From NCBI GenBank assembly GCA_011109175.1, contig RDEW01000054.1, forward strand, positions 123,382-187,381: a stretch of DNA of 64,000 nucleotides, given 5' to 3'. This DNA is from Dicyema japonicum. Lineage: Eukaryota; Animalia; Dicyemida. Shown in pieces: positions 1 through 40,053 of this stretch. The translations under genes and the position numbers were made by a program. The notes below the pieces were generated by a model. It was given only the letters and a program-made list of their open reading frames with translations. It did not search any database and was not told where the DNA came from. Numbering within the stretch: the stretch's first letter is position 1; every line of letters begins with the position of its first letter.

Positions 1-2100
1 ACCGACTATTGGAGACCAAGCAAGTCGTCTTTCATACTCACTCACTTCTCTTATGAACAGGATATTATCTGAACATTTGCCTGATTTGATACGTCATATC
101 TTGTTTTCGGCTAGTCTGATTGCCGTCGACAAGAAGGGAGGTGGAATCCGCCCGATCGCGGTCGGATTCACTTTCAGAAGACTAGCAGCCAAGATTGCTT
201 CCAGATTTTCTACGTCAATCTTGTCAAAATCCTTACTTCCCAGTCAAGTTGGAGTCGAAGTTCGTCTTGGATGTGAGGCAGCCGTTCACTCCGTCAGAAG
301 ATTCAGGAACAGCTGCATTCAAGACTTTAAAAGGCACATTATGGTAAAACTGGACATCAAGAACGCTTTTAACAGCTTAAGAAGAGACTGCATTCTGGAG
401 GCCTGCAAGGAAAGATGTCCGTACATATTTGAACTGGTCAATTGTTCATACGGAAAACCTTCACTATTGCACGGGGATTTCATAGTTCCATCGTCCTCAG
501 GTGTTCAACAGGGCGACCCCCTCGGACCACTGCTGTTCTCCCTCGGCATTGAGAGGATCACGAAGCTCTCTAGATGCCCACTCAACATCTGGTACCTCGA
601 TGACGCTGTCTTAGGAGGTCCCCCGGAAACGGTCTTCCAGGAATTAGAAGTACTCACCCCGCGCTGTTCGAGGTGGGTCTTCAGTTGAATATAACGAAAT
701 GTGAAATAACAAACTGTGGTCTTGCTGACGATGACTTCTCTTCAATTGTTCAAAAATTTTACTCCTTGTTTCCCGGTGGGATTTCGACCCCTGAAAATGA
801 ATTGATTTTTCTTGGATCCCCGATCACTAGTAATGCGATGAAGCATGTCCTCCTTGACAAAAAACGACTCCTATGCGATTCGCTGGAAAGATTACAGCTG
901 CTGGACTTGCACACAGCACTATTCCTATTGAAAAGAAGTCTCAACATCCAGAGAATCTCCTATCTACTAAGGACAGCTCCATATTATTCTCAACTGGAGC
1001 TGCTCGAGAATTTTGATTTGTCTCTCCTCAGCTCGACGGAGCAAATATTTAATGTCCGATTCGACGATGATACATGGATGCAGGCTACACTCCCAGTTAG
1101 ATTCGGGGGTCTTGGAATCCGTCGAACTTTGGACGTCTCACTTCCCGCTCATTTATCATCACTCACGGCCTGCGAACCTTTGGTCAGGAGGATTCTACAC
1201 TCCCCACCCGAATTCTCAACTGACCAAGAGATAATCCACGCACGAGAAGCCTGGAATGCCACCAACCTCCCCCTGCCTCCTTCCCAAGATCGCCAGCGAA
1301 ACCTGGACAACTTATTATGCTGGAAATCATTTGGACTCCTACTGGAATCTGCCAATCAGCACCGACGCGCTTGTTTGCTTTCGGGGGCTTCCCCTGAGAG
1401 CGGAGCTTGGCTAAACGCCATCCCCAATGGAGCTTTGGGCACTTTTCTGGATGATGAATGCGTTAGAACTGGTATCTCTCTGCGGCTGGGACTAAAAGTA
1501 TGTGTACCTCACCCGTGCCGATGTGGCATCCTGATAGACTGCTATGGCCTGCACCCTCTCGCCTGCAGGAGGAGCGCTGGCAGATCCCCAAGGCACAAGG
1601 CTCTGAATGAAATTGTCAGACGAGCTATGGATGCTGCTGGATACTCGGCCATTCTTGAACCGGTCGGGTTATGCAGAAGTGACGGGAAACGACCGGACGG
1701 GATGACCATATTTCCATTTGAGGCCGGGAAACCACTGGTTTGGGATGTGACATGTACAGACACGTTCGTCCAGAAAAATCTTCACGAGAGTGCTACAAGG
1801 GCTTGTTCAGCATCCGTAAAGGCGGAGAAGGCCAAACTCGTTAAATACGTCGACCTTCCCGATGATGTCAAATTTGTTCCCCTTGCTATGGAGACTTCCG
1901 GATCCTACTCCCCCTCTACACTCGAGTTTTTCGGACGTCTTGGAAACCGGATCACCTCATGCACTGGAGATCTCCGTGAACGCCGCTGGCTATTTGAGCG
2001 AATTTCGCTCGCAATTTTGTGAGGGAACAGCCACGCAGTGAGGGCGGCAACTACCTGACTTCTATTGTTTAAAAAAAATAAAAAAAAATAATAATAATAA
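1..2100 (+). mobile_element. CRE-clade non-LTR retrotransposon (RT + restriction-like endonuclease), 3' part with A/TAA-rich tail
   Basis: ORFs 53-688 and 673-2022 join across one frameshift. RT motifs GIRPIAVG, KLDIKNAFNS, QQGDPLGPLLF, WYLDD, then GGLG, a CRCG...HPLAC...RH zinc knuckle and the RPDG...WDVTC REL motif. The true stop is about 2058 (the copy at 27.9 kb reads through the TGA at 2020). Tail AAAAAAAATAAAAAAAAATAATAATAATAA at about 2071-2100. Confidence 0.88.
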
Positions 2101-2575
2101 TTGCAAAAGAAATGATTGTAAAAATTGCATTATAGAACGATGATCGAAATCATTTATTGTAATAAGAAATAAAAATATTCCTGAACATTTTCATGTTTAA
2201 AGTTTCGATTTTAAGTAAGAATTTTCGTCAAAAGAGATATCATCGCATTTTCAACTGAGGCTGAGCTTTTGCAACAATTTCGAAGGTGTGATTAAATTTC
2301 TGGTGAAATATTTTTATTTGAGAAATCAAGAATACTTAGTATCCAGATTTTTAAAGATTTTTTGATATATATTTTTTATATTGCACCGATCAGATGAAAA
2401 TTCTATGGTGTTCAGATCTGCATAAGATTTTTAAATTGAATAATCAAGTAGTTAGGTATTTGAAATCATTTCAATTAAAATCAAATAGTTTTGCTGATTT
2501 CTGTTAAACATGTAAACAAAGCGGGAATATTAACTGATTTTTTGTCCTAAAATAATTAAAAATCGAAACATTTTT
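2101..2575 (-). pseudogene. hAT transposase C-terminal (dimerisation domain) relic
   Basis: Minus strand reads CKSSASVENAMISLLTKILT*NRNFKHENVQEYF, resembling the hAT S-x-VER-x-FS..IL...R....EN motif. The same segment recurs at 27420-27900 (inverted) and 40125-40610. Confidence 0.6.
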
Positions 2576-3615
2576 GATTATTATTCTAGGCACGTACGCG
2601 ATGCCAAGATCATGACAAAGCATGTGCAACACGAAAAGTTAACAATCTAATTAACGTCCCCCATCTTTTTCGATCCGTTGCCATGTTCCGTAGCATATCC
2701 TGAGATCTTCATCTAGAATAACCGGCAGTGTTGTCCTCGGCCGGCCGCGGAAACGAGAAGCTTCTAAGACAAATACTCCTCCATTGCTATGTTGGAAGGG
2801 GTCCCCATATCGTGGCAGAGTATGTGTCCAAAGAGCCATCATCTTGAATCAGTAATCTCACATGATATTGGCTCAGTTCCTGTTCTCTTGTATAAGATTT
2901 CAAACTCCTTCGATATTTTTGTCTTTTGGAGACATCCGATTAATATCTTGTATTTTGAAAGGTCTTCACAAAGTTCTTTTCTTTTCCATGCACTAGAGAG
3001 TTCTTTGACATTGAACGTTAAAAGAGAGAAGTCATTTAGGTTGCAATTTTCGTGTTTTTCAGACATACTTTTCAAGAGGGACGTCACCATTTCAACCTAA
3101 CATTTTTGATTAAAACTCCATTTCCTTCAAATTCAGAGACAAATTTATTAATTTCTGGAAGATTCTGGGAATAATATTTGGCTGCTTTTAGCCAGCTTCT
3201 CCATCTTGTGACAACAATTTAGGGTGGATTTCCTATTTGTGAGAACATTTAACAGCGTCTTTTGTTCTTCACCTTGGCAGCCGTTAGGAAGAAATCAGGT
3301 TGTCTCTGTGAAGTAAGATTTTATTTTTAGAGCACAATTGTGTAACAGATGTGAAACGAAATTATTATGACACTTTCACGAAAGCCATAATGTTTATAGC
3401 CCCGCATGTGCAACACTCAAAGAAACAATATTTATAGTTAGTCTTTTCCATTTTCCTCTGTCGAATGCGAGTGATCTCAATTCGTCCAGGTCGTCCCCCG
3501 TCTTTAGATTTTTTCTCACACGGACGACCTAGATCGACACTTCCGACTGCCTTAAACAAAGACCTAAATCGTGTAAAACACAAGTGACGTGAAAAAAATT
3601 TAGATATAAAAATTT
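2575..3615 (-). mobile_element. Internally deleted RTE-like non-LTR element
   Basis: APE start (ELCEDLSKYKILIGCLQKTK) is fused directly to an RTE-type C-terminus (WWLFGHILCHDMGTPANIA), followed by a short TAATAAT tail at about 2577-2587. Confidence 0.65.
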
Positions 3616-4290
3616 CATTAATGTCCCAGCTAAAATTAGATTTATTCCTACACTTGTCATATATCTTGTTCGGAGCGGAGATTTACCCAATCAGAGTACA
3701 GTCAAACCCCTCTAAACCGATTCCTCTCGAAACCGACAGAATTGTCCGGTATAGAGGGGAGGTCGGTATATTGAACAAGTCATTAAATTTATTTATAACG
3801 AAAAAGTGAAACAGTAAAATTAATAGAAATCTGTCAATAATGATTGCCTCGTATTTAGCTTCAATTCAGCAATCGCTTTATTGTTCAGATAGATCAGTCT
3901 GTTGACTGGATCGAGTAATGAAGGGTCTTGAGTGCAAGCAAAGTGGCAGATTTGGTCTAGCATTTGTTGAACATTTGTGCATGTTAATTTCTCTATATGT
4001 TTTGGCTCTGTTTGCTTATCAGAATCTGAGTCATTGTCATTATCTTCAAAAGCTGAGACTGTTTGGTATTGCTAAACTAGGAATGATTCCAAATCTTTGG
4101 GATTTTCAGTGGGTACTTCCAAGTCTAAATTGACAAATTCTTCTTCTGTCATTGGATTATCGACTAGTCTATTCATGAGGGGTCTGAACAGTAAATTGTT
4201 TTCAGGATTGTCGTTTATATGTCACGAGCCTAGGGTGTTAACGAGCCTAAATTCGCTTATTGAAAATTAATTTATCGCTTGAGATAAATA

Positions 4291-4511
4291 AAGGAAATTA
4301 ATTTTTTTATTAAATAATAACAGCATAGGGAATTAGTGTCTATCAGGGATGTAGTTTCATGCGAGATTTATAATGATGTTCTATCTATGTTTAGTTGTTT
4401 CTCGTGATATACTTATTATTTCTCTATTTAAGTTATTTTGTAACTTCTATTAGTAGAAAATATAATAATTTAATTATGCTGTAATTATTTAATAAAAAAA
4501 TTAATTTCCTT
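4291..4511. mobile_element. AT-rich MITE (about 221 bp), TA-flanked
   Basis: About 37-bp imperfect TIRs AAGGAAATTAATTTTTTTATTAAATAATAACAGCATA / TATGCTGTAATTATTTAATAAAAAAATTAATTTCCTT with TA on both sides. Duplicated at about 25730-25950. Confidence 0.65.
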
Positions 4512-4514
4512 TAA

Positions 4515-5641
4515 TAAGTCGTGTGTGAATTGTGGTTCATCCAGCCACTTTGCAAATTATGGAAGATGCCCAAGGCTGTTGAAGCTAACATAGCGAAGAA
4601 AAACAAAATTGACCAAAAAAGGAAAAATCGAATGGAAAATTATTCTAAAACGAGAAAATGCCCATAATGGAGAAAGTGAAGTTTCCAAAATTGGAACGAA
4701 TAAGAAATTAAAGTCAGAGTTTAGAATGTATGGCAGACTGGATGGAATACCAATAAATAAGAAACCTTCTAAAAAAACAGTAGAAGCTTCAACACAGAGA
4801 AGAGAGTGGCGCTCTTAAGAAGAGAGGGCAGCCACCGAAAAAAACAGAAGTAGTCAGGATAACCCTGATTAATGCCCGTTCTCTTCGGAAACGGGCCTCA
4901 TTGCTGGTTGCTATAGCCATCACGATCCAGATGGAAGTTCTAATTATAAACGAAACTAAATTGAAGAAAAGACCATTTAAAATTGATGGATACGACTCAT
5001 TAGATTTTTTTATTTGTTTTTTTGAAAGACTGGTTCTTGTGCTGGAACAGGAACTTCAATTTACTACAAAACTTCTTTAAATACAAGACTACCCACGATC
5101 AATGAAGAAAATCTTTGTGAACTAGCAAGCATTCAACTACAAATAACCATGTGATGGATAACTATCGGAGGAATCTATTCTTAAAAACTACGAGAGTATC
5201 CATGGATTGTTGACAAATTTATGGAAACAGTGAATATCCAATCCTTGTTGGGGACATTAACGCTAAACATATTGGCTATGGTTGTGTAACAACCAATCAA
5301 GATAGAAAATGCCTTGTAAAATGGATGAAGTCTGGAGAGTTAAAGATTTTAATTCAGTCGAAATTATGGAATTAAACTCGCACATGGATTGGATTTAGCA
5401 TCTGAAATTGATGACGAATACGAAAGAAAAACGAGAAGAATTGGTGATTTATTACATTGATTGTGGAAACTCGCATTGTAATTGGGGCTTTTTACGGAGA
5501 AGAGACATACGGTGTCTCATGAGAGTGCCCCAATATAGACGACCCCAAATCTTGGCTTTCCTCTTTAGTTAATGGCTCTTACCTTGTTTAGTTAGTTGGG
5601 GTTTTGCGAATAAATCATGTTATCTGTTAATTGTTGTTCTT
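4515..5641 (+). mobile_element. LINE copy A (Jockey/R1/I-group-like): gag knuckle end, APE relic and 3' end; RT deleted
   Basis: CVNCGSSSHFANYGRCPK knuckle, APE start ITLINARSLRK...IINETKL, ILVGDINAKH, and the 3' end GGGGTTT...AATAAA...TTAATTGTTGTTCTT shared with LINE copy B. Confidence 0.7.
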
Positions 5642-6450
5642 AGTCGTCTTCTTACTAATTCAGTAATGCCGTACTATCCCATCCGGGAAGGTTATAGTGC
5701 AAGACCCTATATGGGTCGTTCGGATCTGAAAACAGTGTCATTTGGGGAGTTTGGCTGGGGCGGTACATCTGCTAAACGATAACGCAGATGTCCAAAGGTG
5801 AGCTCAGGCGGAACAGAAATCTGCCATGGCGCGAAAGGGTAAAAGCTCGCCTTATTTGCATGTTCAGTACGTATGCAAAACGCGAAAGCGTGGCCTATCG
5901 ATCCTTTTGCTTTTAAAAGCTTTAAGCTAAAGGTGACAGAAAAGTTACCACAGGGATAATTGCTTGTGGCGCCCAAGCGTACATAGCGACGGCGCTTTTT
6001 GATCCTTCGATGTTGGCTCTTCCTATCATTGCGAAGCATAAATCGCAAAGTGTAGGATTGTTCACACTAACAGGGAACGTGAGCTGAGTTTAGACCATCG
6101 TGAGATAGGTTAGTTTTACCCTACTGATTCGGTGTCGTTGCAACAGTAATTCTGCAAATTACGTGAGGAACTGCAGAGTCAGACATTTGGTTCATGCACT
6201 TGACTGAAAAGTCAGTGGTGCGAAGCTATCGTCTGAAAATAATAACTGAACGCCTCTAAGTTAGAATCTTGACTGGAAGCAACGATATTGTGCAGTACTC
6301 TAATATAGCAAGAATATGCTTTTATGACTGCTGTTACCTTGGTGTCGAAAGGTGTCCTAAAAGTAGGCATTATCACCCAGGTGAATTGCATTGAGACTGA
6401 GTACTGTGCTAAATCACATGTAGACGACATTCTAATCACATGTAGACGAC
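5638..6450 (+). rRNA. 28S (LSU) rRNA 3' fragment including the peptidyl-transferase centre; probable pseudogene
   Basis: Conserved LSU blocks GGGGAGTTTGGCTGGGGCGGTACATCTG, CAGAAAAGTTACCACAGGGATAA, GATCCTTCGATGTTGGCTCTTCC, GGATTGTTCAC...GGGAACGTGAGCTG, GAACGCCTCTAAG and CTAAATCACATGTAGACGAC. There is no 5' two-thirds, 18S or 5.8S nearby. A 22-bp tandem duplication lies at the 3' end. Confidence 0.93.
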
Positions 6451-6514
6451 AATCGAAGATTAATTGTTAATTCTAGATATAAATGTTCTCTGTCAGATTA
6501 ATTGTTAATTCTAA

Positions 6515-8900
6515 ACATGGAATTTAACTATTGTTAACATCTTTGATGGGATGGAATCAGCCAGAAGAGCTAGGATTTCTCGTCGACATACTGGCGATTT
6601 TATCCTGGAGTTTAAGAACTTGGAAGACCTTGAAAATTTTAAAAAATCAATGAATAATAGTAATCCTTTTGGATTTGGTAAACATGAGATGGAAGAAGTA
6701 AAATTGCTTCCTTCGACTATAATTCTAAAAAATGTTCCGACATGGATAGAGATGGATGAATTAAAGGATTTTCTTCGCTCAAAGTTGGCAGGAGAGTTCC
6801 TAGCTGAAAGATTTGTACGTTGTGGTGTTAGCTTGCCTATTGTTAAGCTTGTCTTAACAAGCAGGGGAGAAGCAGAATCCATTGTCAGATTGGGATTGAT
6901 TATTGGATTTTTGAAGATAAAAGCGGAATGGTATATAAAACGAGAAATTCAGTGTTTTCGTTGTCAACAGTTTAGACATATTGCTCGGTTTTGCAAGAAC
7001 TTAGAAAAGTGTCTACATTGTTCGGGATCACATAGAAGATCTGAATGTAAAGCATCGCATGATACAAAAAAATGCGTTAATTGTGGGTCGACTACTCATC
7101 TGGCAAATTATTGAGGTTGTCCGAAAGCTTTGGAAAATCGTGAGAAAATGAAGAAAGTTGCTGAAAAGTCAAAAGTCTACAAAAAAGAAGATAAGGAACT
7201 TGCCAAATTCGGAAATAGTCATACTATATCAAAAAAAGCTAAGTCAGCGTTTCTTGATGGTCGAACTTGTTGGAATATTCCAACGGTCAGAAGGCAACAG
7301 TAGAAGCTTCTACTCAGACAGAAGAACCTGTGAAGGGAATGAAAGAAGAAATCTCAACACAGGTCAATGATAATGAATGTCAACTTGATTATTCACAAAC
7401 TTTGGAAAAATTAGAAAAAAGCATTATAGAAGTAACGAAAACAATAAAGGATACGAAGCATTTATTGGATTTGGTGGCGATCCTAAGAGGAGGGATCAGC
7501 CACCAAAAAAATCAGAAGTAATCAGGATAACCCTGATTAATGCCCGCTCTCTTCGGAAGCGGGCTTCAGAGCTGACTGCATTGGTCATATTATATAATTC
7601 TTCTTGGAGTTTTGGTCATGTTCTAGCTTATTGGAAACGAACAATTGTACGCATGGTTGTGAAAAAAGGAAAGCCAAGGTCAAAAGCAGATAGTTATAGG
7701 CCAATTAGCCTAGTCTGCTCAATATCGAAAGTTATGGAAAAAATTGTTTTCAATCGTCTATCAAGGCATGTTGAGGATAATAATTTTCTCTCTGATAATC
7801 AACTGGGATTTCGGCATAAAAAAGGGACTGGAGATTGCTTTAAAGAGCTAAGATCTGCAATCGAAATTTCACGAAATAACAAGGAATTTCTTACAATAGC
7901 ATGTTTGGATATAACAAAAGCGTTTGACAGTGTTTGGCACTTTGGACTTCTTGATACGTTGTCAAAAGCAGAAATTGGGAAAACTGCGTTATTTTGGATA
8001 GAAAACTTTCTTTCAAAAAGAAAGTCATATATACGTGTTGGAAATTTAATTTCAAAGAAAATTGAATTGCGAATAGGAGTTCCACAGAGTTCAATTCTCA
8101 GCCCGCTACTCTTCAATTGCGTAATGAGAGATTTGCCGAAAATAGAGAGCGTAAATAGTCAAATGATTATTTATGCTGATGACATTCTTGTGCTTGATTC
8201 AAGCATGAATAAACAAATTTCATGAAAAGGGTGGAATCCCATATTACTAAGATTGGAAAGTGGTGCCAAAACAATGGGTTGACTCTATCGAGGGAAAAAA
8301 CAACAGTCACTTGGATTGCAAGTAAAAGAAAAAATATTAATCAATGTGTGAATACTGGGGATATAAAAATCTCTGAAACATTGAAGTATCTCGGATTGTT
8401 GATAGATCGAAGAGGATCTTTCAAGGAACATATTAAAACACTAAGAAAGAAAGCTACAGGAATGTTGAAATCTTCAATTCGATTTCATATGGAGCCTGAA
8501 ACTTTTCTTTTTGTGTATTCAGCGTGTGTTGAACCATTCTTGATATATGGTTATCAAGGATGGTTTAGAACAAAAGAAAGTGATGTCTTTGTCAAAAAAT
8601 TGGAAAAGTCCAGAAGATTTGCGATTAAATTGGCATATGGACTGGACTTAAAATCCAATATCGAAGAGGATTATGACCTGAATGTCAGAAAGATAGAAAA
8701 ATTATTACATTACTTATGGAAATGAGATGTAATTTTTGGGGTCCAAACGAAGTAGAGACATGTGGTTTCTCATAAAATGACCCTACACGATGAATACAAA
8801 CCCACTTAATTAGTTTTGGTTCAGGTTTTGGTTTCTTAACAGTAATTAGATTTGGGGTTTGTTAGAAAATAAAATTTGTCTTGTCTTAATTGTTGTTCTT
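6515..8900 (+). mobile_element. LINE copy B (same family as A): ORF1 gag with three CCHC knuckles, APE mostly deleted, RT, 3' UTR
   Basis: ORF 6551-7114 contains CFRCQQFRHIARFC, CLHCSGSHRRSEC and CVNCGSTTH. RT ORFs 7581-8225 and 8222-8725 contain YRPISL, QLGFR, LDITKAFDSVWH, PQ(S/G)SILSPLLF and YADD. The gag-APE junction at about 7490-7560 closely matches 4815-4900. Confidence 0.85.
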
Positions 8901-9589
8901 GGGTCCTGTAAAATTGGTCGTTTAGTAATGGGTTATTCTAAGTCCATAAGTGTAACCACCTAGGCTCGGTAACACCCTAGGCTCGTGACATTTATATCAT
9001 ATATTTTGACTGGAATGCCACACTTATTAAAGCAGAGGGAGATTGTGTTTGATTTCACGTCCATCCAAGATGTGATAATCCACCGAATAGCATCCAAGAG
9101 AGAAATTTTTTGCAAGTGGTGTCGCATTGGTTTCTGTGTCCATTTTGGCAAGAAGTTGAGTCATTCCATACTTCTTTCTGAGAAATTTTTGTGTCGACTT
9201 AGGTGTTTGGTTCGATTCATTTATTATTTGAATTATCTTCTTTAAAGACAATTCACAACGTAATCGTTTTCTTTGCGGAGCTATTATCTTTTAGTTTTTG
9301 ATTTTCTGTCGAGTTGTTCGCAATATATCTCTATCGTTGTTCGCAATTCAAGGTTAAAGACGATTAATAGGATTAGATCAAAGATTGATGTCAGAAGGCC
9401 GGTTTATGATAAAAGAAAATTCAAGTTGGGACCACAAAATACGGACGGTATTCGGAATAGAGGTGATCCGGTATATCGAAGATGAAATATCAGTGATGGC
9501 CTATGAGGTGAATCGAGACCAGAAGTTTAGTCCGGTTTTAAGGGAATTCCGGTATACTGAGGAGTCGGTTTAGAGGGGTTTGACTGTAA

Positions 9590-10120
9590 TTAAAAAATCG
9601 AGTTCCGTTGACTTGAGCTTCAGCACAAACCAGAAAAACATATTCCCCACTATTAAATAACTTCAAAAAATAACATTCATTGATTCTAAATAGTATCTAC
9701 TTTACATTTTGAGATTTCTTTTATATTTGACCTAAATGTTGATTCAGATGCTAATGATGTGTTTCATCTTCAAAAAGGGGTATGAGAGAAGGGTGTCTCA
9801 TTTTGTAAATTGGGATGTTTTTTTCCAAAAATGCTTCTATTACTTTCATAGCCCAAGTTTTCCGAGTATCGGTTATCTCGGAAATGAATTTTTGTGAACT
9901 CTGAGATGGGATGGATTCTACTATAATTTTAAACTCAGAAAAATACTGTACCTTTTCAAATGACTTTTTGTAGAACGATGTGCTCAACAAAAAATTTTGC
10001 ACATCGCACAACAGTCGAGCAATTGGAACAAAATAAATTCCCCTTCCGTTGATAACAAACTCTGAGAATTTTTTTGCATAAAAAGAAATTTTCTGTGAAA
10101 TAGTCCTTTTACCCATACCA
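9590..10120 (-). pseudogene. hAT transposase N-terminal relic, CGGBP1-related type
   Basis: ORF 9751-10116 ends with KVIEAFLEKNIPIYKMRHPSLIPLFE, resembling the A-x-IP-x-x-K-x-x-x-P motif of CGGBP1-like hAT proteins. Confidence 0.5.
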
Positions 10121-10714: not shown

Positions 10715-13700
10715 GCTTATTGGCCTCGATTGTGCCCAGAGTATAATTTCTTAATTGAAATCTTCTTGGGCCAACCTAGACCTATTAAATTGCATAATTG
10801 TTTTCGATGAAATATATCCATTTTCTTGATCTCTAGCTCTGTGACCCCCCATGTACCCGAGTGGTACATAAGCACCGTCTTTAAATATGAGTTGTATAGT
10901 ATTATTTTTAGTTTGTTTTTATTAGTTTTTGTAGACTCCATATCTTCTGCATATTTTATACATGGCAGTGGCTAAAACTCTTATATACATCATGTCCTTA
11001 CTATCACCAAGTAAGGATCCCAATTTCCTTTTTTCCTCCAACTTTCATCAATATATTTTAATTCACTTGTAATTCTTATGACAAAATCTATGTCATCTGC
11101 ATATATAATCTCCATCTGCATGCATCCTTCACATTTTGTTCTAAGAGCTCTCAATGCCGCTTCCAGGTATACGACGAATAGAACCGGAGATTTAGAGTCC
11201 TCCTGAGGTATTCCAACTGTTGTCCCGAAAGGCATTGATGTCGTGTTCCCAACCCTTACAGTTAATTCAGTGATAGATAATAGGAAACGGACAAGTATTG
11301 TGTTATCTTCATCAAGGAAATTCCCAGCAACGTATAACAATGTTTTTCTATTGACAGTGTCAAACGCATTGGACATGTCCACTTCCATAATCTTAAAATC
11401 ATTCGTATATTGTTGACAAATGTCCATGGCACATATTCACCTGTGGGACCAAACAGCATCTGCGGTCGAGCGTCCCCTTCTAAACCCACTCTGTCCCGGC
11501 GACAAAAATTTATAAACATGAGAAGATATCTGACTAAAGGTTATCAGAGATAGTATCTTTTTCAATGTTCGCAGCAATATCACTGATCTTAGATTTTTTA
11601 TCGGTCCCTTGCACATTCCTGGTTTATTCAAAGGAATCAAAATTCCATCACCAAGTTTCAAGGACAAATGCGTCTCAAATACCTTATTTAAATTCTTTGT
11701 AATGAGGGTTCAGTTCACCAGATGCATACTTGATCATTTCTCCAGGTATGTTGTCTGGTTCCGCTGCCCTGTTGTCGTTTAATTTAATGATTCCCAGGTT
11801 AGTTTCTTTTGTAGAGATAGGTAGGTTCAGACTTCTTGGTGATTTTTCAAATGGCTCCACATATAAGGTTTCATTTTCATTCAAAAGTCCTGAAGAATAT
11901 TAGACAATAATCTCAGTTTTTTCTATATTATCCAATATATTTCTTCCTTGACTGTCGTGAATACAAATATGTCACATGGGCGCGTAACGCATGGGCAGCC
12001 TGTTACATTTTTTCGACTTTGAAATGGTCTTTTGATTATCCGACATTTAATTTTGTATATAAAGCATTAACAATTTATTGAAGAATAAAACCAAATAGTT
12101 TAAAGGCTACTGGCTGCTCTCAGGATTGAGAGCGCATTTCCCCTTACGATCTGTAAGGAGATGCGCTCAATGAGCCAGCCCTTCTCTCTGACATCCCTCC
12201 TCCTTTTATTTTGTATATCCGATTTATATCGTGATTTAATCCTGTTAAATTAGTTTTTTATTCATAAATGTTATGATTATAAAGATTTTATTTTTTTATA
12301 GCGGTAAACCTAGATTTCTAGCATGGAAGATTATTTTGTTACAATGGCTTCTTACAAGGGTTTTGTGAAAGATTGTGTTGAATATCAAACTTTAAAAGAT
12401 GCTTTGCATGATAAATTTCACGAAAATCTTCCGAGGTATCAAAAATATAGGCTTGTAAAGAAGATAGAGAATTTTTCCATTATCAATGATAGGTATTGTA
12501 AATTTGCAATAATTTTAGACTGTATCTTAAATCAACTGATCCAAGTTAGTCATATCCCTGGATGATGAAACCGAAATGGAGCATGTTGCGAAATCTTTGT
12601 ACGAGTTTTCACACGGAGGAGTCAATAAAATTGAGTATGAATGTCGACAAAGATACTTCACTGTAAAGAATGAGATTATCAGAAAAGTCATTCGAAATTG
12701 TGAAGTCTGCAAATTTTCGCGTCCTTTAAAAGTTCGTGATTTTTTATAATTGTAGATTGGAGATATAAATCATTATGTGGTTGCTTCTTCTCCAAATGAA
12801 CTTTTTCAGTAGATCTAATAGACCTGAAAAAATTTTCAACATTAAATGAAAATTTCAAATAAATTTAAACGGTCATTGACATATATAGTAGGTTGGTTTT
12901 TTTTAATTTATAGATTCGCTTTTGTACGACCACTCTATAATAAGTCTGGTAAAGAAGTATGTGAAAACTTAAGATCTTTGTTCCGCCTGAATGGGCCATG
13001 TAAATTTCCTCAGTCCGACAATGGTTCTGAATTTAAAAATCAAGAAATAACAAAACTTTGCGAAGATTTTAACATTAAGCAAATTCACGGAAGGCCTAAC
13101 AATCCACGAGCACAAGGAATTGTCGAAAGATTTAATCAGACGATCACGAGGAAGTTGTCAAAAATGTTGGATAACAGTGAAAAAAAGTGGCTTGATAAAT
13201 TAGAAAGTGCTGTCTACAGTTATAACATATCGGTCCATTCATTTTCCAACGAAAGTCCTTTCGAAAGATATCGAGGAATTAAGGGAATAAATTCAATAAT
13301 TAATGGTTATACTTATATCACATTATGACTTAGATAATTTAAGTGATGAGTGTGCGATTCCAGAACAAATTGACGATTTGGTTAATTGTTCGACTCCAGA
13401 ATCTATTGAAAATTCACGTAGTTTGATTTAAAAAATTTATATCTAGATAATTCCCAGTCAGATAATCTGTGTCCGAATACGAAGAGATTCAATCTCGAAA
13501 TTAAATCAATTGAAGAAAATTCGAATTATTACAAAGCTATGAAAAGGAAAATGAATGTTCATAATAGTAAATATATTTTTAACATGGAAGATAAAGTATG
13601 AATTAAAAACATTAATAGATAGGTTCGGCTAAAAAGGACTTTGGAACAAATCCCTCATTGCGACTGGATAAGTTTGGGTCTCAGTATTATCCAGTTGCAG

Positions 13701-14040
13701 AAATAATTAATATTTTATCGAATAATCGCGTGAGGTAGTTTTAAATAGTTTAATTTGATAGATAAAAAATTCGAAAGGAGAAATATCGACTGTATTAATG
13801 AGTAGACTAAAAAAAGTTACTTAAATTTAATTTTTTGTGGTAAATAAATCATTTATAAAATTAATTGAAGTTAATCTTGGTTCAAGGTTAATGTAACAGG
13901 CAGCCCATAGGTATCGCTTGGCCCATGTGACAAAATATTCGTAGATTGAACTCCCTTCTGCAAAAGGCGAACAGCTCGAAACATTTGCGTTCCGTATCCC
14001 AACTTCTCAATTTCTTGACGGAAGGAATCCGGGATGTCGT
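10715..14040 (-). mobile_element. RTE-like non-LTR RT fragment, interrupted by the Ginger element
   Basis: ORFs 10717-11884 contain LRSVILL, QSGFRRGRSTAD, VDMSNAFDTV, PQEDSKSPVLF and YADD. Removing 11970-13932 and one AAATA restores the frame GVQSTN-ICIHDSQG. Confidence 0.8.
11970..13932 (+). mobile_element. Ginger-type (retroviral-like integrase) DNA transposon with three micro-introns; ORF disrupted
   Basis: About 42-bp imperfect TIRs TGTCACATGGGC...TGTTACATT, with 5-bp TSD AAATA at 11965-11969 and 13933-13937. The integrase has an HHCC-like region (SHGGVNK...CEVC), VIDIYSRF, QSDNGSEF and PRAQGIVERFN. GT-AG introns at 12493-12518, 12732-12756 and 12892-12913. Confidence 0.85.
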
Positions 14041-14345: not shown

Positions 14346-14872
14346 CATAAGGAATAGCTTGGGTTAATTCTAAAACACCACTTAACATTATATAAATGTA
14401 TAGAAAAGTCTTCAGATTTGAATGAAAGTGATGAAAAAATTTCAATACCGCTGTTACTTTATTCTTTCTACTTATGATGTAATTTTTAACGGTTCCCTTC
14501 TGATATGCGCATACTAAGCGGTGTTTTAAATCTTCTTAATGACTTAACATTGTCAGGATTCACAAAATCATTAGTTTTTACTCTTTCATGATGATTCATG
14601 TAGCATGGAGATAAATAATGGTTTTTGTCGTGACACTATTATTTTTTCTTTTAGGATAATTCTTACAAAAGTAAAGATGTATATTGAGAGATACGCACAT
14701 CATTTATTTTATTAGTGGAAGGTTTAGTCCACGCAATCTACACTGACATCGTACATTGAAATATTTATATATATAAAATCAATACTACGGACAGACACAA
14801 ATTAACTATTTTATAATATTTATATGAATAGGTATTTAATATAAATTAAAATTTAAAAAAAACTTAATTTGT

Positions 14873-17800: not shown

Positions 17801-18345
17801 TTTGGACGCTTCTTTTATTTCGCAAGCATTATTTACTTCAAATATCGAAGTTTGTATTGTTTAATAATATTATAGATTTTTAAACTTATTTCATTGTTTT
17901 TAGGTTTTATAAAACAAATTTTTGACATCAGGTATTCCTTAAAGAAAAAATGTAGCAATGTTAAATATTCTATTTTACTTCTTAGATACATAAATTCCTG
18001 ATCGAAATTTTTTCTAAAACTAGAGAATCTATTTTTAAAGTACGCAATTATTGTAATCAACCCAATTTGGCTAAAATCAGTGAACTTTTATCGAAACGTG
18101 ATTTCATTAGTAATGTATTTTTTACCATTTTATTATTTAGTTTTCAAACAATAGTGAAATTAAAGATATTCTTGAAGACACACATAATAATTTACAAAAT
18201 GCTGAATTAAATTTTCCTCGAAGTTGTACGAGCAAAAATCGACTATCTTGTATAATCTTATAAAATTTATTGACTCAATTAAATTTTAGTATTGTCAAAA
18301 GATATCGTTTCATTCTTTAATTTGAGTGTTAGTAAATTACCTTAG
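14873..18345 (+). CDS. NAA25: N-terminal acetyltransferase B auxiliary subunit (NAA25/MDM20), multi-exon with micro-introns
   Basis: Manual splicing gives MESREKNKLKDII...KAMAIRGFTLYKVGRKDDG..., IYKKLERWENLKQLCEKSL, LIYDYLTLFCHKTCCWRDVNYYLNKLP and MEIKHIQLDSIGY. These parallel the NAA25 motifs MYKKLSRW, FGDKPCCFTDL and LDAKHIQHDTIGY as I recall them. Introns at 14913-14934 and 15021-15044. The 3' end is approximate. Confidence 0.85.
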
Positions 18346-18499
18346 TCTTTAAAATTCTGATTTGAGTTCTATAATTTTGGACCGCATTATTATTCACTCT
18401 TAACAGCTCATGACGTATAATAAATTTTTTAAATGTCTCTACAAATTGAAATAATGTTAAATTAATTTTGAGTAGTAATTGTATCATCATTGAGCGTCG

Positions 18500-19385
18500 T
18501 TCACATAATGAAGCAACATATATTATACCCAAGAGACTGGACACGACATGCTCTTCCTCCGTTTATGCCAATGCATGAAAATATGGACTTTTCTGCTCGT
18601 CTTGCGGTGACTTTTCACCTCGGATGCATAAAGATATCTCAGCGAGTTGCATGCTCGCTCTGCCTGTGGAACTGAAGTGTCTGCATGGGCACTGGTCGGA
18701 AAACCCAGAAGATCACTCCAATCGAGCCCGTCGAACCGAATGAGCCATTGACCACAATGATATGGACAACCTCTTGTTCTTCTTGTCGGATCTAAAAAAA
18801 GCCAGGAAGATTCCAATCAGGATCCCAAGACCCACTCGCATCCTCACGGCTACATGCCTGGCCTCTGCAATTGACGATGCTTTCACGTCCGACGACCAGA
18901 AAACTCCTCAGTTTCGCCCCGATGACACTTGGAATTCCATTTATCGACTCAAAAGGAGATCAACGAAACACAGGAGAAAGTACAATACTTGGGAACTCCC
19001 TTTCCTCAAAAATGAAGAAGAACATCCAGGTTTTCCATATAATTCTCTCACCAAGACGGAAGTCCTGAAGCCAAAACACCCTGATGTCAATCCTCCGGTT
19101 TCTTTGAATGGCCCTGACAAACTTGGAGAGAGAGTAAATCGTAAACTACTTGAAGGCAACGTCCGAGCGGCGTTGCCAGCGACGATACTGTCATGGCCAC
19201 GACGCCTGAGGTGCTTGAACTACTCAGACGAAAACATTATGTCCTCCGGCAGATTACCGCCCATTCGTGCTTCCGAGAAATTTGTCAAGGACGACCGTCA
19301 CTGAAGGCAAAGTGCGGCGCGGCATTTCGTCGTTTGCGGCGAGTAGAACTGGAGGTCTTGCGGCCAGGTCACATCAAGAATCTTA
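18500..19385 (+). mobile_element. 5' (pre-RT) fragment of a CRE-type element
   Basis: KIPIRIPRPTRILTA, RKLLEGNVRAA, TPEVLELLRRKH and LRPGHIK, the region expected just upstream of the RT domain seen at 1-688. Confidence 0.6.
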
Positions 19386-20290: not shown

Positions 20291-20519
20291 AGTCTGATAA
20301 ATCGTCAGTTTGATGAATCGTCACGTAACAAAAATATATATTTAAATTAATAAATAAGACTTAAATTTACTCTAATGATGCTAAAGTAAATTCTAATTAA
20401 CAAAAAATCCCCTAACACTGAATAATATTATTATGTTGTTAGCGTGGTGTCATGTGGCTCACCAGAAATGGTGTCACCCATTCCAAAAAGGAACGAAAAG
20501 AGGCAACAGCTTCTCCCCA

Positions 20520-21640: not shown

Positions 21641-22459
21641 AATATTTATTGTGACCGGTTCAGAATGAGATACGGTTGAATAAGAGCCGTTAAATATCGA
21701 TATTCAATGTACCGATTTAAAAGCCAATCAAACAAAATGGGCAATCGTCCCTAGACAAGGCAAAGAAAAAAAAAAAAAAAAAAACTAATTACTGTTAAGA
21801 AACCAAAGCCTGAAACCAAAACTAATTAAGTGGGTTTGTATTCATCGTGTAGAATCATTTTATGAGAAACCACATGTCTCTACTTCGTTTGGACCCCAAA
21901 AATTACATCATATTTTCCATAAGTAATGTAATAATTTTTCTATCTTTCTGACTTTCAGGTCGTAATCCTCTTCGATATTGGAATTTAAGTCAAGATAATT
22001 CAAATAATAAATGAATCGAACCAAACACCTAAGTCGACACAAAAATTTCTCAGAAAGAAGTATGGAATGACTCAACTTCTTGCCAAAATGGACACAGAAA
22101 CCAATGCGACACCACTTGCAAAAAAATTTCTCTCTTGGATGCTATTCGGTGGATTATCACATCTTGGATGGACGTGAAATCAAACACAATCTCCCTCTGC
22201 TTTAATAAGTGTGGCATTCCAGTCAAAATATATGATATAAATGTCACGAGCCTAGGGTGTTACCGAGCCTAGGTGGTTGTTACACTTATGGACTTAGAAT
22301 AACCGATAACTAAACGACCAATTTTACAGGACCCAAGAACAACAATTAAGACAAGACAAAATTTATTTTCTAACAAACCCCAAATCTAATTACTGTTAAG
22401 AAACCAAAACCTGAACCAAAACTAATTAAGTGGGTTTGTATTCATCGTGTAGGGTCATT

Positions 22460-23584
22460 TTATGAGAAACCACATGTCTCTACTTCGTTTGGACCCCAAA
22501 AATTACATCTCATTTTCCATAAGTAATGTAATAAATTTTCTATCTTTCTGACATTCAGGTCGTAATCCTCTTCGATATTGGATTTTAAGTCCAGTCCATA
22601 TGCCAATTTAATCGCAAATCTTCTGGACTTTTCCAATTTTTTGACAAAGACATCACTTTCTTTTGTTCTAAACCATCCTTGATAACCATATATCAAGAAT
22701 GGTTCAACACACGCTGAATACACAAAAAGAAAAGTTTCAGGCTCCATATGAAATCGAATTAAAGATTTCAACATTCCTGTAGCTTTCTTTCTTCGTGTTT
22801 TAATATGTTCCTTGAAAGATCCTCTTCGATCTATCAACAATCCGAGATACTTCAATGTTTCAGAGATTTTTATATCCCCAGTATTCACACATTGATTAAT
22901 ATTTTTTCTTTTACTTGCAATCCAAGTGACTGTTGTTTTTTCCCTCGATAGAGTCAATCCATTGTTTTGGCACCACTTTCCAATCTTAGTAATATGAGAT
23001 TCCACCCTTTTCCATGAAATTTGTTTATTCATGCTTGAATCAAGCACAAGAATGTCATCAGCATAAATAATCATTTGACTATTTACGCTCTCTGTTTTCG
23101 TCAAATCTCTCATTACGCAATTGAAGAGTAGCGGGCTGAGAATTGAACCCTGTGGAACTTCTATTCTCAATTCAATTTTCTTTGAAATTAAATTTCCAAC
23201 ACGTATATATGACTTTCTTTTTGAAAGAAAGTTTTCTATCCAAACTAACGCAGTTTTCCCAATTTCTGCTTTTGACAACGTATCAAGAATTCCAAAGTGC
23301 CAAACACTGTCAAACGCTTTTGTTATATCCAAACATGCTATTGTAAGAAATTCCTTTTTATTTCGTGAAATTTCGATTGCAGATCTTAGCTCTTTAAAGC
23401 AATCTCCAGTCCCTTTTTTATGCCGAAATCCCAGTTGATTATCAGAGAGAAAATTATTATCCTCAACATGCCTTGATAGACGATTGAAAACAATTTTTTC
23501 CATAACTTTCGATATTGAGCAGACTAGGCTAATTGGCCTATAACTATCTGCTTTTGACCTTGGCTTTCCTTTTTTCACAACCAT
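22460..23584 (-). CDS. LINE reverse transcriptase ORF (374 aa) in the duplicated arm
   Basis: Uninterrupted version of the frameshifted 7581-8775 RT; retains PQG and YADD. Confidence 0.75.
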   Translation of the reverse strand: MVVKKGKPRSKADSYRPISLVCSISKVMEKIVFNRLSRHVEDNNFLSDNQLGFRHKKGTGDCFKELRSAIEISRNKKEFLTIACLDITKAFDSVWHFGILDTLSKAEIGKTALVWIENFLSKRKSYIRVGNLISKKIELRIEVPQGSILSPLLFNCVMRDLTKTESVNSQMIIYADDILVLDSSMNKQISWKRVESHITKIGKWCQNNGLTLSREKTTVTWIASKRKNINQCVNTGDIKISETLKYLGLLIDRRGSFKEHIKTRRKKATGMLKSLIRFHMEPETFLFVYSACVEPFLIYGYQGWFRTKESDVFVKKLEKSRRFAIKLAYGLDLKSNIEEDYDLNVRKIENLLHYLWKMRCNFWGPNEVETCGFS

Positions 23585-23810
23585 GCGTACAATTGTTCGT
23601 TTCCAATAAGCTAGAACATGACCAAAACTCCAAGAAGAATTATTATGACCAATGCAGTCAGCTCTGAAGCTCGCTTCCGAAGAGAGCGGGCATTAATCAG
23701 GGTTATCCTGATTACTTCTGATTTTTTTGGTGGCTGATCCCTCCTCTTAGAATTAACAATTAATCTGACAGAGAACATTTATATCTAGAATTAACAATTA
23801 ATCTTCGATT

Positions 23811-24594
23811 GTCGTCTACATGTGATTTAGCACAGTACTCAGTCTCAATGCAATTCACCTGGGTGATAATGCCTACTTTTAGGACACCTTTCGACACCAA
23901 TCAGCATAAAAGTATATTCTTGCTATATTAGAGCACTGCACAATATCGTTGCAGCCAGTCAAGATTCTAACTTAGAGGCGTTCAGTTATTATCTTTCAGA
24001 CGATAGCTTCGCACCACTGACTTTTCAGTCAAGTGCATGAACCAAATGTCTGACTCTGCAGTTCCTTACGTAATTTGCAGAATTACTGTGGCAACGACAC
24101 CCAATCAGGGTAAAACTAACCTATCTCACGATGGTCTAAACTCAGCTCACGTTCCCTGTTAGTGGGTGAACAATCCTACACTTTGCGATTTATGCTTCGC
24201 AATGATAGGAAGAGCCAACATCGAAGGATCAAAAAGCACCGTCGCTATGTACGCTTGGGTGCCACAAGCCAATTATCCCTGTGGTAACTTTTCTGTCACC
24301 TTTAACTTAAAGCTTTTAAAAGTAAAAGGATCGATAGGCCACGCTTTCGCGCCTTGCATGCGTACTGAACATGCAAATAAGGCGAGCTTTTACCCTTTCG
24401 CGCTATGGTAGATTTCTGTTCCGCCTGAGCTCACCTTTGGACATCTGCGTTATCGTTTAGCAGATGTACCGCCCCAGCCAAACTCCCCAAATGACACTGT
24501 TTTCAGATCCGATCGACCCATATAGGGTCTTGGACTATATCCTTCCCGGATGGGATAGTACGGCATTACTGAATTAGTAAGAAGACGACTAAGA
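23811..24594 (-). rRNA. Second copy of the 28S rRNA 3' fragment (pseudogene)
   Basis: Reverse complement of 5638-6430 with several substitutions and small indels. Confidence 0.92.
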
Positions 24595-27500
24595 ACAACA
24601 ATTAACAGATAACATGATTTATTCGCAAAACCCCAACTAACTAAACAAGGTAAGAGCCATTAACTAAAGAGGAAAGCCAAGATTTGGGGTCGTCTATATC
24701 GGGGCACTCTCATGAGACACCGTATGTCTCTTCTCCGTAAAAAGCCCCAATTACAATGCAAGTTTCCACAAGCAATGTAATAAATCACCAATTCTGCTCG
24801 TTTTTCTTTCGTATTCGTCATCAATTTCAGATGATAAATCCAATCCATGTGCGAGTTTAACTCCATAATTTCGACTGAAGTTACAATCTTAAACTCTCCA
24901 GACTTCATCCATTTTACAAGGCATTTTCTATCTTGATTGGTTGTTACACAACCATAGCCAATATGTTTAGCGTTAATGTCCCCAACAAGGATTGGATATT
25001 CACTGTTTTCCATAAATTTGTCGACAATCCATGGATACTCTCGTAGTTTTTTAGAATAGATTTTTCCGATAGTTATCCATCACATGGTTATTTGTAGTTG
25101 AATACTTGCTAGTTCACAAAGATTTTCTTCATTGATCGTGGGTAGTCTTGTATTAAAGAAGTTTTGTAGTAAATTGAAGTTCCTGTTCCAGCACAAAAAC
25201 CAGTCTTTCAAAAAAACAAATAAAAAAATCTAATGAGTCGTATCCATCAATTTTAAATGGTCTTTTCTTCAATTTAGTTTCGTTTATAATTAGAACTTCC
25301 ATCTGGATCGTGCTGGCTATAGCAACCAGCAATGAGGCCCGTTTCCGAAGAGAACGGGCATTAATTAGGGTTATCCTGACTACTTCTGGTTTTTTCGGTG
25401 GCTGCCCTCTCTTCTTAAGAGCGCCACTCTCTTCTCTGTGTTGAAACTTCTACTGTTTCTTTTTTAGAAGGTTTCTTATTATATGTGGTATTCCATCCAG
25501 TCTGCTCATACATTCTAAACTCTGACTTTAATTTCTTATTCGTTCCAATTTTGGAAACTTCACTTTCTCCATTATGGGCATTTTCTCGTTTTAGAAATAA
25601 TTTTCCATTCGATTCTTTCCTTTTTTGGTCAATTTTGTTTTTCTTCGCTATGTTAGCTTCAACAGCCTTGGGGCATCTTCCATAATTTGCAAAGTGGCTG
25701 GATGAACCACAATTCACACACGACTTATTAAAGGAAATTAATTTTTTTATTAAATAATTACAGCATAAATTAAATTATTATATTTTCTACTAATAGAAGT
25801 TACAAAATAACTTAAATAGAGAAATAATAAGTATATCACGAGAAACAACTAAACATAGATAGAACATCATTATAAATCTCGCATGAAACTACATCCCTGA
25901 TAGACACTAATTCCCTATGCTGTTATTATTTAATAAAAAAATTAATTTCCTTTATTTATCTCAAGCGATAAATTAATTTTCAATAAGCGAATTTAGGCTC
26001 GTTAACACCCTAGGCTCGTGACATATAAACGACAATCCTGAAAACAATTTACTGTTCAGACCCCTCATGAATAGACTAGTCGATAATCCAATGACAGAAG
26101 AAGAATTTGTCAATTTTAGACTTGGAAGTACCCACTGAAAATCCCAAAGATTTGGAATCATTCCTAGTTTAGCAATACCAAACAGTCTCAGCTTTTGAAG
26201 ATAATGACAATGACTCAGATTCTGATAAGCAAAAAGGGCCAAAACATATAGAGAAATTAACATGCACAAATGTTCAACAAATGCTAGACCAAATCTGCCA
26301 CTTTGCTTGCACTCAAGACCCTTCATTACTCGATCCAGTCAACAGACTGATCTATCTGAACAATAAAGCGATTGCTGAATTGAAGCTAAATACGAGGCAA
26401 TCCTTATTGACAGATTTCTATTAATTTTACTGTTTCACTTTTTCGTTATAAATAAATTTAATGACTTGTTCAATATACCGACCTCCCCTCTATACCGGAC
26501 AATTCTGTCGGTTTCGAGAGGAATCGGTTTAGAGGGGTTTGACTGTACTCTGATTGGGTAAATCTCCGCTCCGAACAAGATATATGACAAGTGTAGGAAT
26601 AAATATCATTTTAGCTGGACATTAATGAAATTTTTATATCTAAATTTTTTCCACGTCACTTGTGTTTTACACGATTTAGGTCTTGTTTAAGGCAGTCGAA
26701 GTGTCGATCTAGGTCGTCCGACCACGTGAAGAACAAAATACGCTGTGAAATGTTCTCACAAATAGGAAAATCCACCCTAAATTGTTGTCACAAATGGAGA
26801 AGCTGCTAAAAGCAGCCAAATATTATTCCCAGAATCTTCCAGAAATTAATAAATTTGTCTCTGAATTTGAAGGAAATGGAGTTTAATCAAAAATGTTAGA
26901 TGAGGTGGTGACGTCCCCCTCTTGAAAAGTATGTCTGAAAAACACGAAAATTGCAACCTAAATGACTTCTCTCTTTTAACGGTTCAATGTCAAAGGACTC
27001 TCTAGTGCATGGAAAAGAAAAGAACTTTGTGAAAGACCTTTCAAAATACAAGATATTAATCGGATGTCTCCAAAAGACAAAAATATCGAAGGAGTTTGAA
27101 ATCTTATACAAGAGAACAGGAACTGAGCCAATATCATGTGAGATTACTGATTCAAGATGGTGGCTCTTTGGACACATACTCTGCCACGATATGGGGACCC
27201 CTGCCAACATAGCAACGGAGGAGTATTTGTCTTAGAAGCTTCTCGTTTCCGCGGCCGGCCGAGGACAACACTGCCGGTTATTCTAGATTGAAGATCTCAG
27301 GATACGCTACGGAACATGGCAACGGATCGAAAAAGATGGGGACATTAATTAGATTGTTAACTTTTCGTGTTGCACATGCTTTGTCATGATCTTGGCATCG
27401 CGTACGTGCCTAGAATAATAATCAAAAATGTTTCGATTTTAATTATTTTAGGACAAAAAATCAGTTAATATTCCGCTTTGTTTACATGTTTAACAGAAAT

Positions 27501-39975: not shown

Positions 39976-40053
39976 CTTTCTTATCAAGAAAAGGGGAGAT
40001 TAACATTAGTACAAGCTTCTCCAACACTTTAGAAAATGCTCAAGTTATGGAGA

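What the first reader, a model, noticed from the sequence alone, without database searches (positions are those of the whole stretch)
4214..8996. TG...CA inverted-repeat element with a 6-bp TSD carrying a ribosomal peptidyl-transferase-centre fragment and LINE cargo (possible Pack-type Ginger system)
Seen: 30-bp TIRs starting TGTCAC, an exact TTTATA duplication, and restoration of the pogo ORF when the element is removed, so an insertion occurred here. The interior has no transposase, only a MITE, two LINE relics and about 810 bp of 28S rRNA. An integrase-coding element 3 kb away (11970-13932) has the same TGTCAC...GTGACA termini and a similar TIR design (an inner TGTTA(A)C echo of the terminus plus an internal repeat). 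Established: TG...CA ends with 4-6 bp TSDs are typical of retroviral-type integrases, including Ginger DNA transposons, and cargo capture is well known for Pack-MULEs and Helitrons. Inference: a Ginger-type non-autonomous element may move non-self cargo including rRNA, which I do not know to be described. The alternative is a roughly 170-bp MITE that received the cargo after inserting.
Basis: partly seen in the sequence, partly recalled or inferred. Interest (0 to 1): 0.8.

Follow-up and report, generated by a model that had tools for sequence, protein, structure and literature searches.

The report
Ginger-like transposon stuffed with LINE-28S debris
A multi-copy, Ginger-like DNA transposon end-pair sits inside a dead pogo transposon and encloses a piece of 28S rRNA between two LINE relics that were likely pasted in by a LINE reverse transcriptase; nothing seen shows the loaded element moving, so it is most likely ordinary nested repeat debris.

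Summary
In detail: 29/30 TIRs, a TTTATA duplication, an in-frame pogo relic once the insert is removed, and an empty site in a public contig. The TIR family is multi-copy: 16 contigs leave the TIR end into dissimilar flanks. Other right arms, however, run into AT-rich interiors, not LINE. The only cargo-bearing copies seen are this one and an inverted segmental duplicate with the same flanks and TSD. The cargo is one same-strand chain, LINE-A 3' end, then 28S 3' part, then LINE-B. It has short back-and-forth repeats at the 28S/LINE-B join, the anatomy of a LINE template-switch chimera, but no TSD of its own. The nearby integrase element shares TIR architecture, not sequence (12/30, 14/30), and has a 5-bp TSD, so it is probably not the mobiliser. 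Gene-fragment carriage by integrase-type DNA transposons (GingerRoot), animal Pack-TIRs (1.4% multicopy) and 28S/LINE chimeras are published. No genome was available and no reads were laid on the left half, so further cargo copies are not excluded. Verdict: nested insertion, new member of known kinds, low interest.

The parts
3699..4219 (-). pogo/Tigger-like relic, left part with its TIR (CAGTC start, TA outside); 3' part of the interrupted DDE_1-like frame
   Evidence: (I2); relic is 1111 bp without the insert
4214..4219 (.). left copy of the duplicated TTTATA
4220..4288 (+). left arm of the TG..CA element; TIR 4220-4249
4289..4513 (.). AT-rich inner inverted-repeat element (39-bp arms, 97%), likely a TA-targeting MITE; independence not tested
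   Evidence: I1; 21% GC
4514..5641 (+). LINE-A relic: last ORF1 zinc knuckle, endonuclease start, internal deletion near 5350, ORF2 C-terminus and 3' UTR ending in the shared 13-base tail
   Evidence: (Exo_endo_phos_2 on the duplicate)
5642..6450 (+). decayed 3' part of 28S rRNA (clear alignment from about model position 2520 to about 3315), covering the peptidyl-transferase region
   Evidence: the exact 5' edge and the PTC label rest on recalled rRNA knowledge
6412..6513 (+). 28S/LINE-B junction: 18-bp repeat (6412, 6434) and 19-bp repeat (6457, 6495) around a spacer that may be the 28S 3' terminus
6495..8900 (+). LINE-B relic: 5'-truncated ORF1 with three CCHC-like knuckles, endonuclease start, deletion at about 7587, RT, 3' UTR
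8901..8990 (+). right arm of the TG..CA element; TIR 8961-8990; about 10 bp shorter than one other subfamily
8991..9586 (-). right TTTATA (8991-8996) and the 5' part of the pogo-like relic with its TIR
21992..26720 (-). inverted segmental duplicate holding the same element (26023..22242) with the same flanks and TSD; lacks about 965 bp of LINE-B (6514-7479)
11970..13932 (+). neighbouring Ginger2-like element: TGTCAC ends, 5-bp AAATA TSD, broken or intron-split H2C2 + rve integrase; a different family

Best explanation
A non-autonomous Ginger-like TIR element inserted into a pogo relic and likely received its cargo in place, as a LINE-A/28S/LINE-B chimera likely made by a LINE reverse transcriptase switching templates, with no transposition of the loaded form shown. 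Shown: the insertion into pogo, the multi-copy TIR family, the same-strand order of the three cargo pieces, the later segmental duplication, and the loss of about 965 bp in one copy. Inferred: reverse transcription began at the LINE-B 3' end (8900) inside the element, jumped onto 28S rRNA at or near its 3' end with several short back-and-forth hops, then jumped onto the 3' end of a LINE-A transcript. The inner MITE and the internal deletions are inferred to be separate events. The mobiliser of the TIRs is inferred to be an unseen Ginger2-like integrase, not the neighbour at 11970.
For: Both cargo copies in the window share flanks and TSD. Other right arms continue into AT-rich sequence at 8928 (X1 3, X2 2, X3 2 contigs) and 8936 (X1 4, X2 2, X3 4 contigs), not into LINE; 16-nt motifs from these have 0 matches in the window. 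LINE-A, 28S and LINE-B are all on +. LINE-A meets 28S exactly at its own 3' end, the 13-mer it shares with LINE-B's 3' end (3' regions align at score 238 against a shuffled mean of 109, maximum 133 in 200 shuffles). The 28S/LINE-B join holds 18- and 19-bp repeats, and 6475-6499 matches the Rfam 3'-terminal consensus at 15 of 25 ungapped. Published parallels: 18 28S/LINE-1 chimeras, 83% sense (10.1101/2025.02.02.635956); tripartite double-switch chimeras (PMC2104539). Only 4 (1.4%) animal Pack-TIRs were multicopy, and single-copy ones mostly formed without transposition (PMC8277862).
Against: No TSD flanks the cargo; the longest shared word between the left side and the right arm is 6 bp and not at the joins, whereas the published tripartite chimeras have 14-16 bp repeats. 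The 3'-terminus match is weak and post hoc (p about 0.015-0.03), and TRF reads the same spacer as a degenerate third copy of the 19-mer. Three pieces on one strand has a 1 in 4 chance. The 810-bp 28S piece exceeds the 50-482 nt range reported for human chimeras. One X1 contig aligned up to 8920 continues like the undeleted arm subfamily and may be a sister LINE/arm junction elsewhere. Only 24 of 486 loose ends were displayed. A single cut-and-paste move after loading would leave this same picture.
Confidence: 0.5

Rival explanations
1. Pack-type Ginger: the element was loaded elsewhere and then transposed here, once or repeatedly, with its LINE/28S cargo, using a Ginger-like integrase in trans.
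For: TIRs are 29/30 and the TSD is intact. The family has many insertion sites (16 X1 contigs, flank agreement 0.48, like the pogo end at 12 contigs and 0.49). 4.8 kb is within the Ginger range of 2.6-7 kb (PMC2836005). The cargo has no TSD. One contig at 8920 may be a sister junction. Cargo differs more between the two copies than arms and pogo flanks do (60/3317 against 5/1149, Fisher p 3e-4, post hoc), which conversion from further cargo copies could cause.
Against: No second insertion site of the loaded form is seen in the window. The displayed right arms have other interiors. The upstream part of the duplicate diverges as much as the cargo (38/2683, p 0.26). Multicopy Pack-TIRs are 1.4% in animals and 3 of 23 in a frog. 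The neighbouring integrase has different TIRs (12/30, 14/30) and a 5-bp TSD.
Confidence: 0.25
2. In-place loading at the DNA level: a break inside the element was filled from an rDNA-derived or LINE-rich template (gap filling), or the pieces arrived as separate nested insertions, with no RNA template switch.
For: There is no TSD around the cargo. Short templated repeats at joins also arise in microhomology-mediated repair (established knowledge). Gap filling explains most single-copy animal Pack-TIRs. The locus takes DNA-level deletions: copy 2 lost about 965 bp at a 4-bp CTAA overlap.
Against: One join falls exactly on a LINE 3' end and another possibly on the 28S 3' end, as expected of RNA templates. 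No parental rDNA is in the window, though gap filling favours nearby templates.
Confidence: 0.2
3. The composite is an assembly artefact joining high-copy repeats.
For: No listed contig spans the stretch, and the best run holds 0.63 of the sampled words. Several single-base gaps in copy 1 are absent from copy 2 and from the contigs.
Against: Two copies, 1-3% diverged in the cargo and each with private changes, share the LINE-A/28S, 28S/LINE-B and LINE-B/arm joins. TSD and pogo frame restore exactly.
Confidence: 0.05

Closest known systems
Ginger2/TDD DNA transposons, including the non-autonomous Ginger2-1N1_NV (252 bp; PMC2836005)
   Same: TGTNR ends, AT-rich target, non-autonomous derivatives; the neighbour has H2C2 + DDE and a 5-bp TSD like TDD-4/5.
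   Different: TIR 30 bp against 45-297 bp; TSD 6 bp on the TG..CA reading against 4-5 bp; no transposase inside; foreign interior.
GingerRoot / IS3EU (PMC6839031, PMC10045372)
   Same: Integrase-type DNA transposon with a 6-bp TSD; 5 of 77 have TG..CA ends; 22 of 77 carry gene fragments, mostly with loss of the DDE.
   Different: GingerRoot has 100-150 bp TIRs, mostly TA..TA ends and GC-rich TSDs, and lacks HHCC; its cargo is protein-gene fragments, not rRNA and LINEs.
Animal Pack-TIRs (PMC8277862)
   Same: TIR element enclosing non-self sequence; single locus; templated joins.
   Different: The cargo here is repeat-derived and looks RNA-templated; Ginger and rRNA have 0 mentions in that paper's main text.
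LINE template-switch chimeras: 28S/LINE-1 (10.1101/2025.02.02.635956) and tripartite WEIRD/Mg-SINE/MGL (PMC2104539)
   Same: 5' RNA piece joined in sense to a 3' LINE; three-part chain.
   Different: No TSD found here; longer 28S piece; it lies inside a DNA transposon; the LINE is not L1 (CCHC ORF1, clade not determined).
rDNA-derived sequence inside DNA transposons, e.g. Pokey/mPok with IGS (review PMC10946416)
   Same: rDNA sequence within a TIR element.
   Different: There it is spacer or 5S sequence in an established family; here it is 28S coding sequence at one locus.

Membership tests
Ginger2/TDD | Termini TGTNR | tested here: met
   TGTCA at both ends; definition from PMC2836005
Ginger2/TDD | TSD 4 bp (5 bp in TDD) | tested here: inconclusive
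   6 bp with TG..CA ends, or 4 bp with ATG..CAT ends; 16 contigs break after the T at 8991
Ginger2/TDD | TIR about 45-300 bp | tested here: not met
   29/30, then 31/41
Ginger2/TDD | AT-rich target | tested here: met
   TTTATA; one site only
Ginger2/TDD | H2C2 + DDE integrase without GPY/F or YPYY, in the element or in a partner with the same TIRs | tested here: inconclusive
   None inside. The neighbour has H2C2 and rve and no such motif in its integrase frames, but different TIRs
Ginger2/TDD | Integrase falls in the Ginger2 clade | not tested
   No reference Ginger sequences came back; best hits were unnamed integrases at 30-42%
GingerRoot/IS3EU | 6-bp TSD | tested here: inconclusive
   Met on the TG..CA reading only
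GingerRoot/IS3EU | TIR 100-150 bp, mostly TA..TA ends, GC-rich TSD | tested here: not met
   30 bp, TG..CA, TTTATA (definition)
Transposed (multicopy) Pack-TIR | TIRs and TSD enclose non-self host sequence | tested here: met
   28S piece inside
Transposed (multicopy) Pack-TIR | Loaded copies at independent loci with distinct TSDs | tested here: inconclusive
   2 of 2 window copies share one TSD; no genome to search
LINE template-switch chimera | All parts in sense, ending in a LINE 3' end | tested here: met
LINE template-switch chimera | Acceptor RNAs joined at their 3' ends | tested here: inconclusive
   Met for LINE-A; weak for 28S
LINE template-switch chimera | One TSD around the whole chimera | tested here: not met
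   the left join is covered by the inner MITE
28S-specific LINE (R1/R2/R4 type) | 3' end always followed by the same 28S site | tested here: not met

The most novel reading that the evidence does not exclude
A Ginger2-like non-autonomous family with a 6-bp TSD has spread a LINE/28S/LINE retro-chimera, peptidyl-transferase region included, to several independent loci: a Pack-Ginger2 that moves rRNA sequence around the genome.
Probability: 0.12. Interest if true: 0.55.

Novelty: new member of a known kind. Interest (0 to 1): 0.24.

Why it matters
As it stands it is a tidy record of nested events: pogo, then a Ginger-like element, a LINE-made rRNA chimera, a MITE, a duplication and a deletion. 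It also shows at least two TGTCAC-ended families sharing a three-module TIR design with apparently different TSD lengths. If loaded copies were found at several loci, it would add Ginger2 to the superfamilies that make multicopy Pack elements, which are rare in animals, and give a DNA-level route for dispersing rRNA sequence. I found no paper reporting 28S inside a Ginger element (searches; open-access library only).

Tried and rejected
No whole genome is held, so the TIR census could not be run. The exact 21-nt TIR had 0 hits in metagenome contigs and 0 in viral contigs. A 20-nt motif near the 28S 3' end had 0 hits in metagenome contigs, so no relative's rDNA was obtained. No RNA holder listed. 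No reads were laid on 4220-6499 or on the neighbouring Ginger, which leaves open the copy status of the left arm, inner MITE, LINE-A and the LINE-A/28S join. Letters shared by both window copies of LINE-B are absent (8074, 8489) or at 0.1-1.5% of X1 depth (7624, 7994, 8850) in the contigs (40 of 210 rows shown). Contigs drop rare variants and depth is no copy number, so this was not used as evidence. Earlier findings: 4 look-ups, nothing. Integrase and RT homolog searches gave only distant, mostly unnamed proteins, so neither superfamily clade nor organism was fixed. Rejected: IS3EU-type TA..TA ends (the terminal bases at that register are not complementary); a composite of two full MITEs (no inner TIR); CpG decay as the cause of higher cargo divergence (7 of 60 substitutions at CpG); the neighbour at 11970 as the mobiliser. 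Supplements of the papers were not opened; the GingerRoot and Pack-TIR tables could list rRNA or Ginger cases.
Full report
1. Observation. The element runs 4220-8990. Its TIRs match at 29 of 30. A TIR 20-mer occurs 4 times in the window against 0.01 expected. TTTATA flanks both ends. Removing the element and one TTTATA opens a minus-strand frame across the join, whose upstream half hits DDE_1 just under the curated cut-off. The host is a 1111-bp pogo-like relic with its own TIRs and TA ends. One public contig (X3) shows the empty site. The register is ambiguous: a 6-bp TSD with TG..CA ends, or a 4-bp TSD with ATG..CAT ends. Sixteen X1 contigs break after the T at 8991, which fits either a T-initial target or a terminal A..T.

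2. The TIR family. No genome was held. I laid contigs of 4 of 10 listed runs (at most 2 samples; X1-X3 may be the assembly's own sample) on 6500-9700. Behind the TIR end, 16 X1 contigs continue into dissimilar sequence (agreement 0.48); the pogo end behaves the same way (12 contigs, 0.49). So the family has many insertion sites. Inside the right arm, other copies leave the window's sequence at 8928 and 8936 into AT-rich sequence that is not LINE and is not in the window. At least two other interiors exist. Only 24 of 486 loose ends were displayed. One X1 contig aligned up to 8920 continues like the undeleted subfamily; whether it includes the LINE tail cannot be seen.

3. The second copy. 26023..22242 is part of an inverted segmental duplicate reaching from 564 to 9239, with the same flanks and TSD. 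It lacks about 965 bp of LINE-B at a 4-bp overlap. It is not an independent transposition. Divergence is patchy: 5/1149 in arms, MITE and pogo, 60/3317 in the cargo, 38/2683 upstream. I cannot explain the patchiness; conversion or polishing from high-copy repeats are candidates (inference).

4. The cargo. After a 69-bp left arm and a 225-bp AT-rich inverted-repeat element come three same-strand pieces. LINE-A (4514-5641) and LINE-B (6495-8900) are related subfamilies: 86% over the endonuclease start, 66% over the ORF2 end, and an identical last 13 bases. Both are 5'-truncated and internally deleted; contigs show the family's missing sequence at 7574 and 7587. LINE-B is about 2% from X5 contigs (16 differences over 7587-8377, 13 over 8348-8887). 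The 28S piece starts right after LINE-A's 3' end (the exact edge rests on recalled consensus) and aligns clearly to about 6450. The join to LINE-B has an 18-bp and a 19-bp repeat. The 19-mer belongs to the LINE: a family contig covers 6500-6633 with 2 differences and 1 gap. The spacer 6475-6499 matches the Rfam 3'-terminal consensus at 15 of 25 (p about 0.015-0.03, post hoc), and its GATT could pair with the upstream helix strand in the model. Against this, TRF reads it as a degenerate third 19-mer, and other Rfam runs place the model end at 6480. No TSD flanks the cargo. One X5 contig leaves LINE-B at 8887, before the shared 13-mer, so the family's true 3' end may vary.

5. The neighbour. 11970-13932 has TGTCAC ends, a 5-bp TSD, H2C2 and rve domains, and is broken or split by short introns. 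Its TIRs repeat a GTYAC-like module at positions 2, 15-18 and 33-36, as the element's right end does at 2, 18, 35. Identity is only 12/30 and 14/30. Same design, different family. A third end of this design lies at 20285.

6. Mechanism. Best reading (0.50): a Ginger-like non-autonomous element inserted in pogo and was loaded in place by a LINE reverse transcriptase that switched from LINE-B to 28S to LINE-A. Shown: insertion, family copy status, order and strand, duplication, deletion. Inferred: RNA templates, order of loading, the mobiliser. Rivals: transposition of the loaded form (0.25), DNA-level gap filling or serial nesting (0.20), assembly artefact (0.05). One locus cannot exclude a single cut-and-paste move after loading.

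7. What is known. PMC2836005 (passages and section 6): Ginger2 has TGTNR ends, 4-5 bp TSDs, AT-rich targets and short non-autonomous copies. PMC6839031 (passages and section 15): GingerRoot has 6-bp TSDs, 5 of 77 TG..CA, and 22 of 77 with gene fragments. PMC10045372 (passages): TSD lengths by superfamily. PMC8277862 (passages): 370 animal Pack-TIRs, four (1.4%) multicopy, mostly transposition-independent. 10.1101/2025.02.02.635956 (passages): 18 28S/LINE-1 chimeras, 83% sense. PMC2104539 (passages): tripartite chimeras with 14-16 bp TSDs. PMC10946416 (passages): rDNA-derived sequence in DNA transposons such as Pokey/mPok. The element works like a Ginger2 non-autonomous derivative but fails or leaves open the TIR-length and TSD tests, so I do not file it as a member. 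I saw no report of 28S in a Ginger element in search listings; supplements were not read.

8. Verdict. Real feature, ordinary ingredients. New member of known kinds; interest 0.24. The novel reading, a multicopy Pack-Ginger2 carrying 28S, has probability about 0.12 and would deserve about 0.55. The organism was not identified; short introns, low GC and a diverged rRNA suggest a reduced parasitic eukaryote (recalled impression, untested).

Noticed in passing
window 20285-20335 (+): A third TGTCAC-type end with repeated modules (positions 2, 20, 36, 41), directly after a LINE RT relic that stops at 20284; no partner end in the window.
   Followed up: partly
window 40600-63600: Tandem array of about 12 units of about 1.9 kb at 96-98% identity, with some shorter units; no Rfam hit, and the one ORF scanned had no Pfam hit.
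   Followed up: partly
window 14860-18500 (+): Host gene with a NatB_MDM20 (NAA25) hit, E 3e-7 at 15855-16157, apparently split by very short introns.
   Followed up: partly
window 30553-36077 (+): Probable long intron-rich host gene; weak Huntingtin N-terminal HEAT hit, E 0.004, under the cut-off.
   Followed up: no
window 21781-21994 (-): A separate 214-bp piece of the LINE-B 3' region (94%) joined to the end of the segmental duplicate and abutting a long A/T run.
   Followed up: partly
window 604-2022, 10990-11800, 18744-21760, 39805-39981: Several other LINE relics of different families.
   Followed up: no
window 5500-5530 and 8750-8775: Both LINE subfamilies keep a similar motif at the start of the 3' UTR; it folds as a short hairpin in LINE-A but not in the same way in LINE-B's predicted fold.
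   Followed up: partly
window 3840-4739 and 8940-9239 against the duplicate: Stretches with almost no substitutions between the copies (3/900, 0/300), while cargo and upstream parts differ by 1-3%; unexplained.
   Followed up: partly
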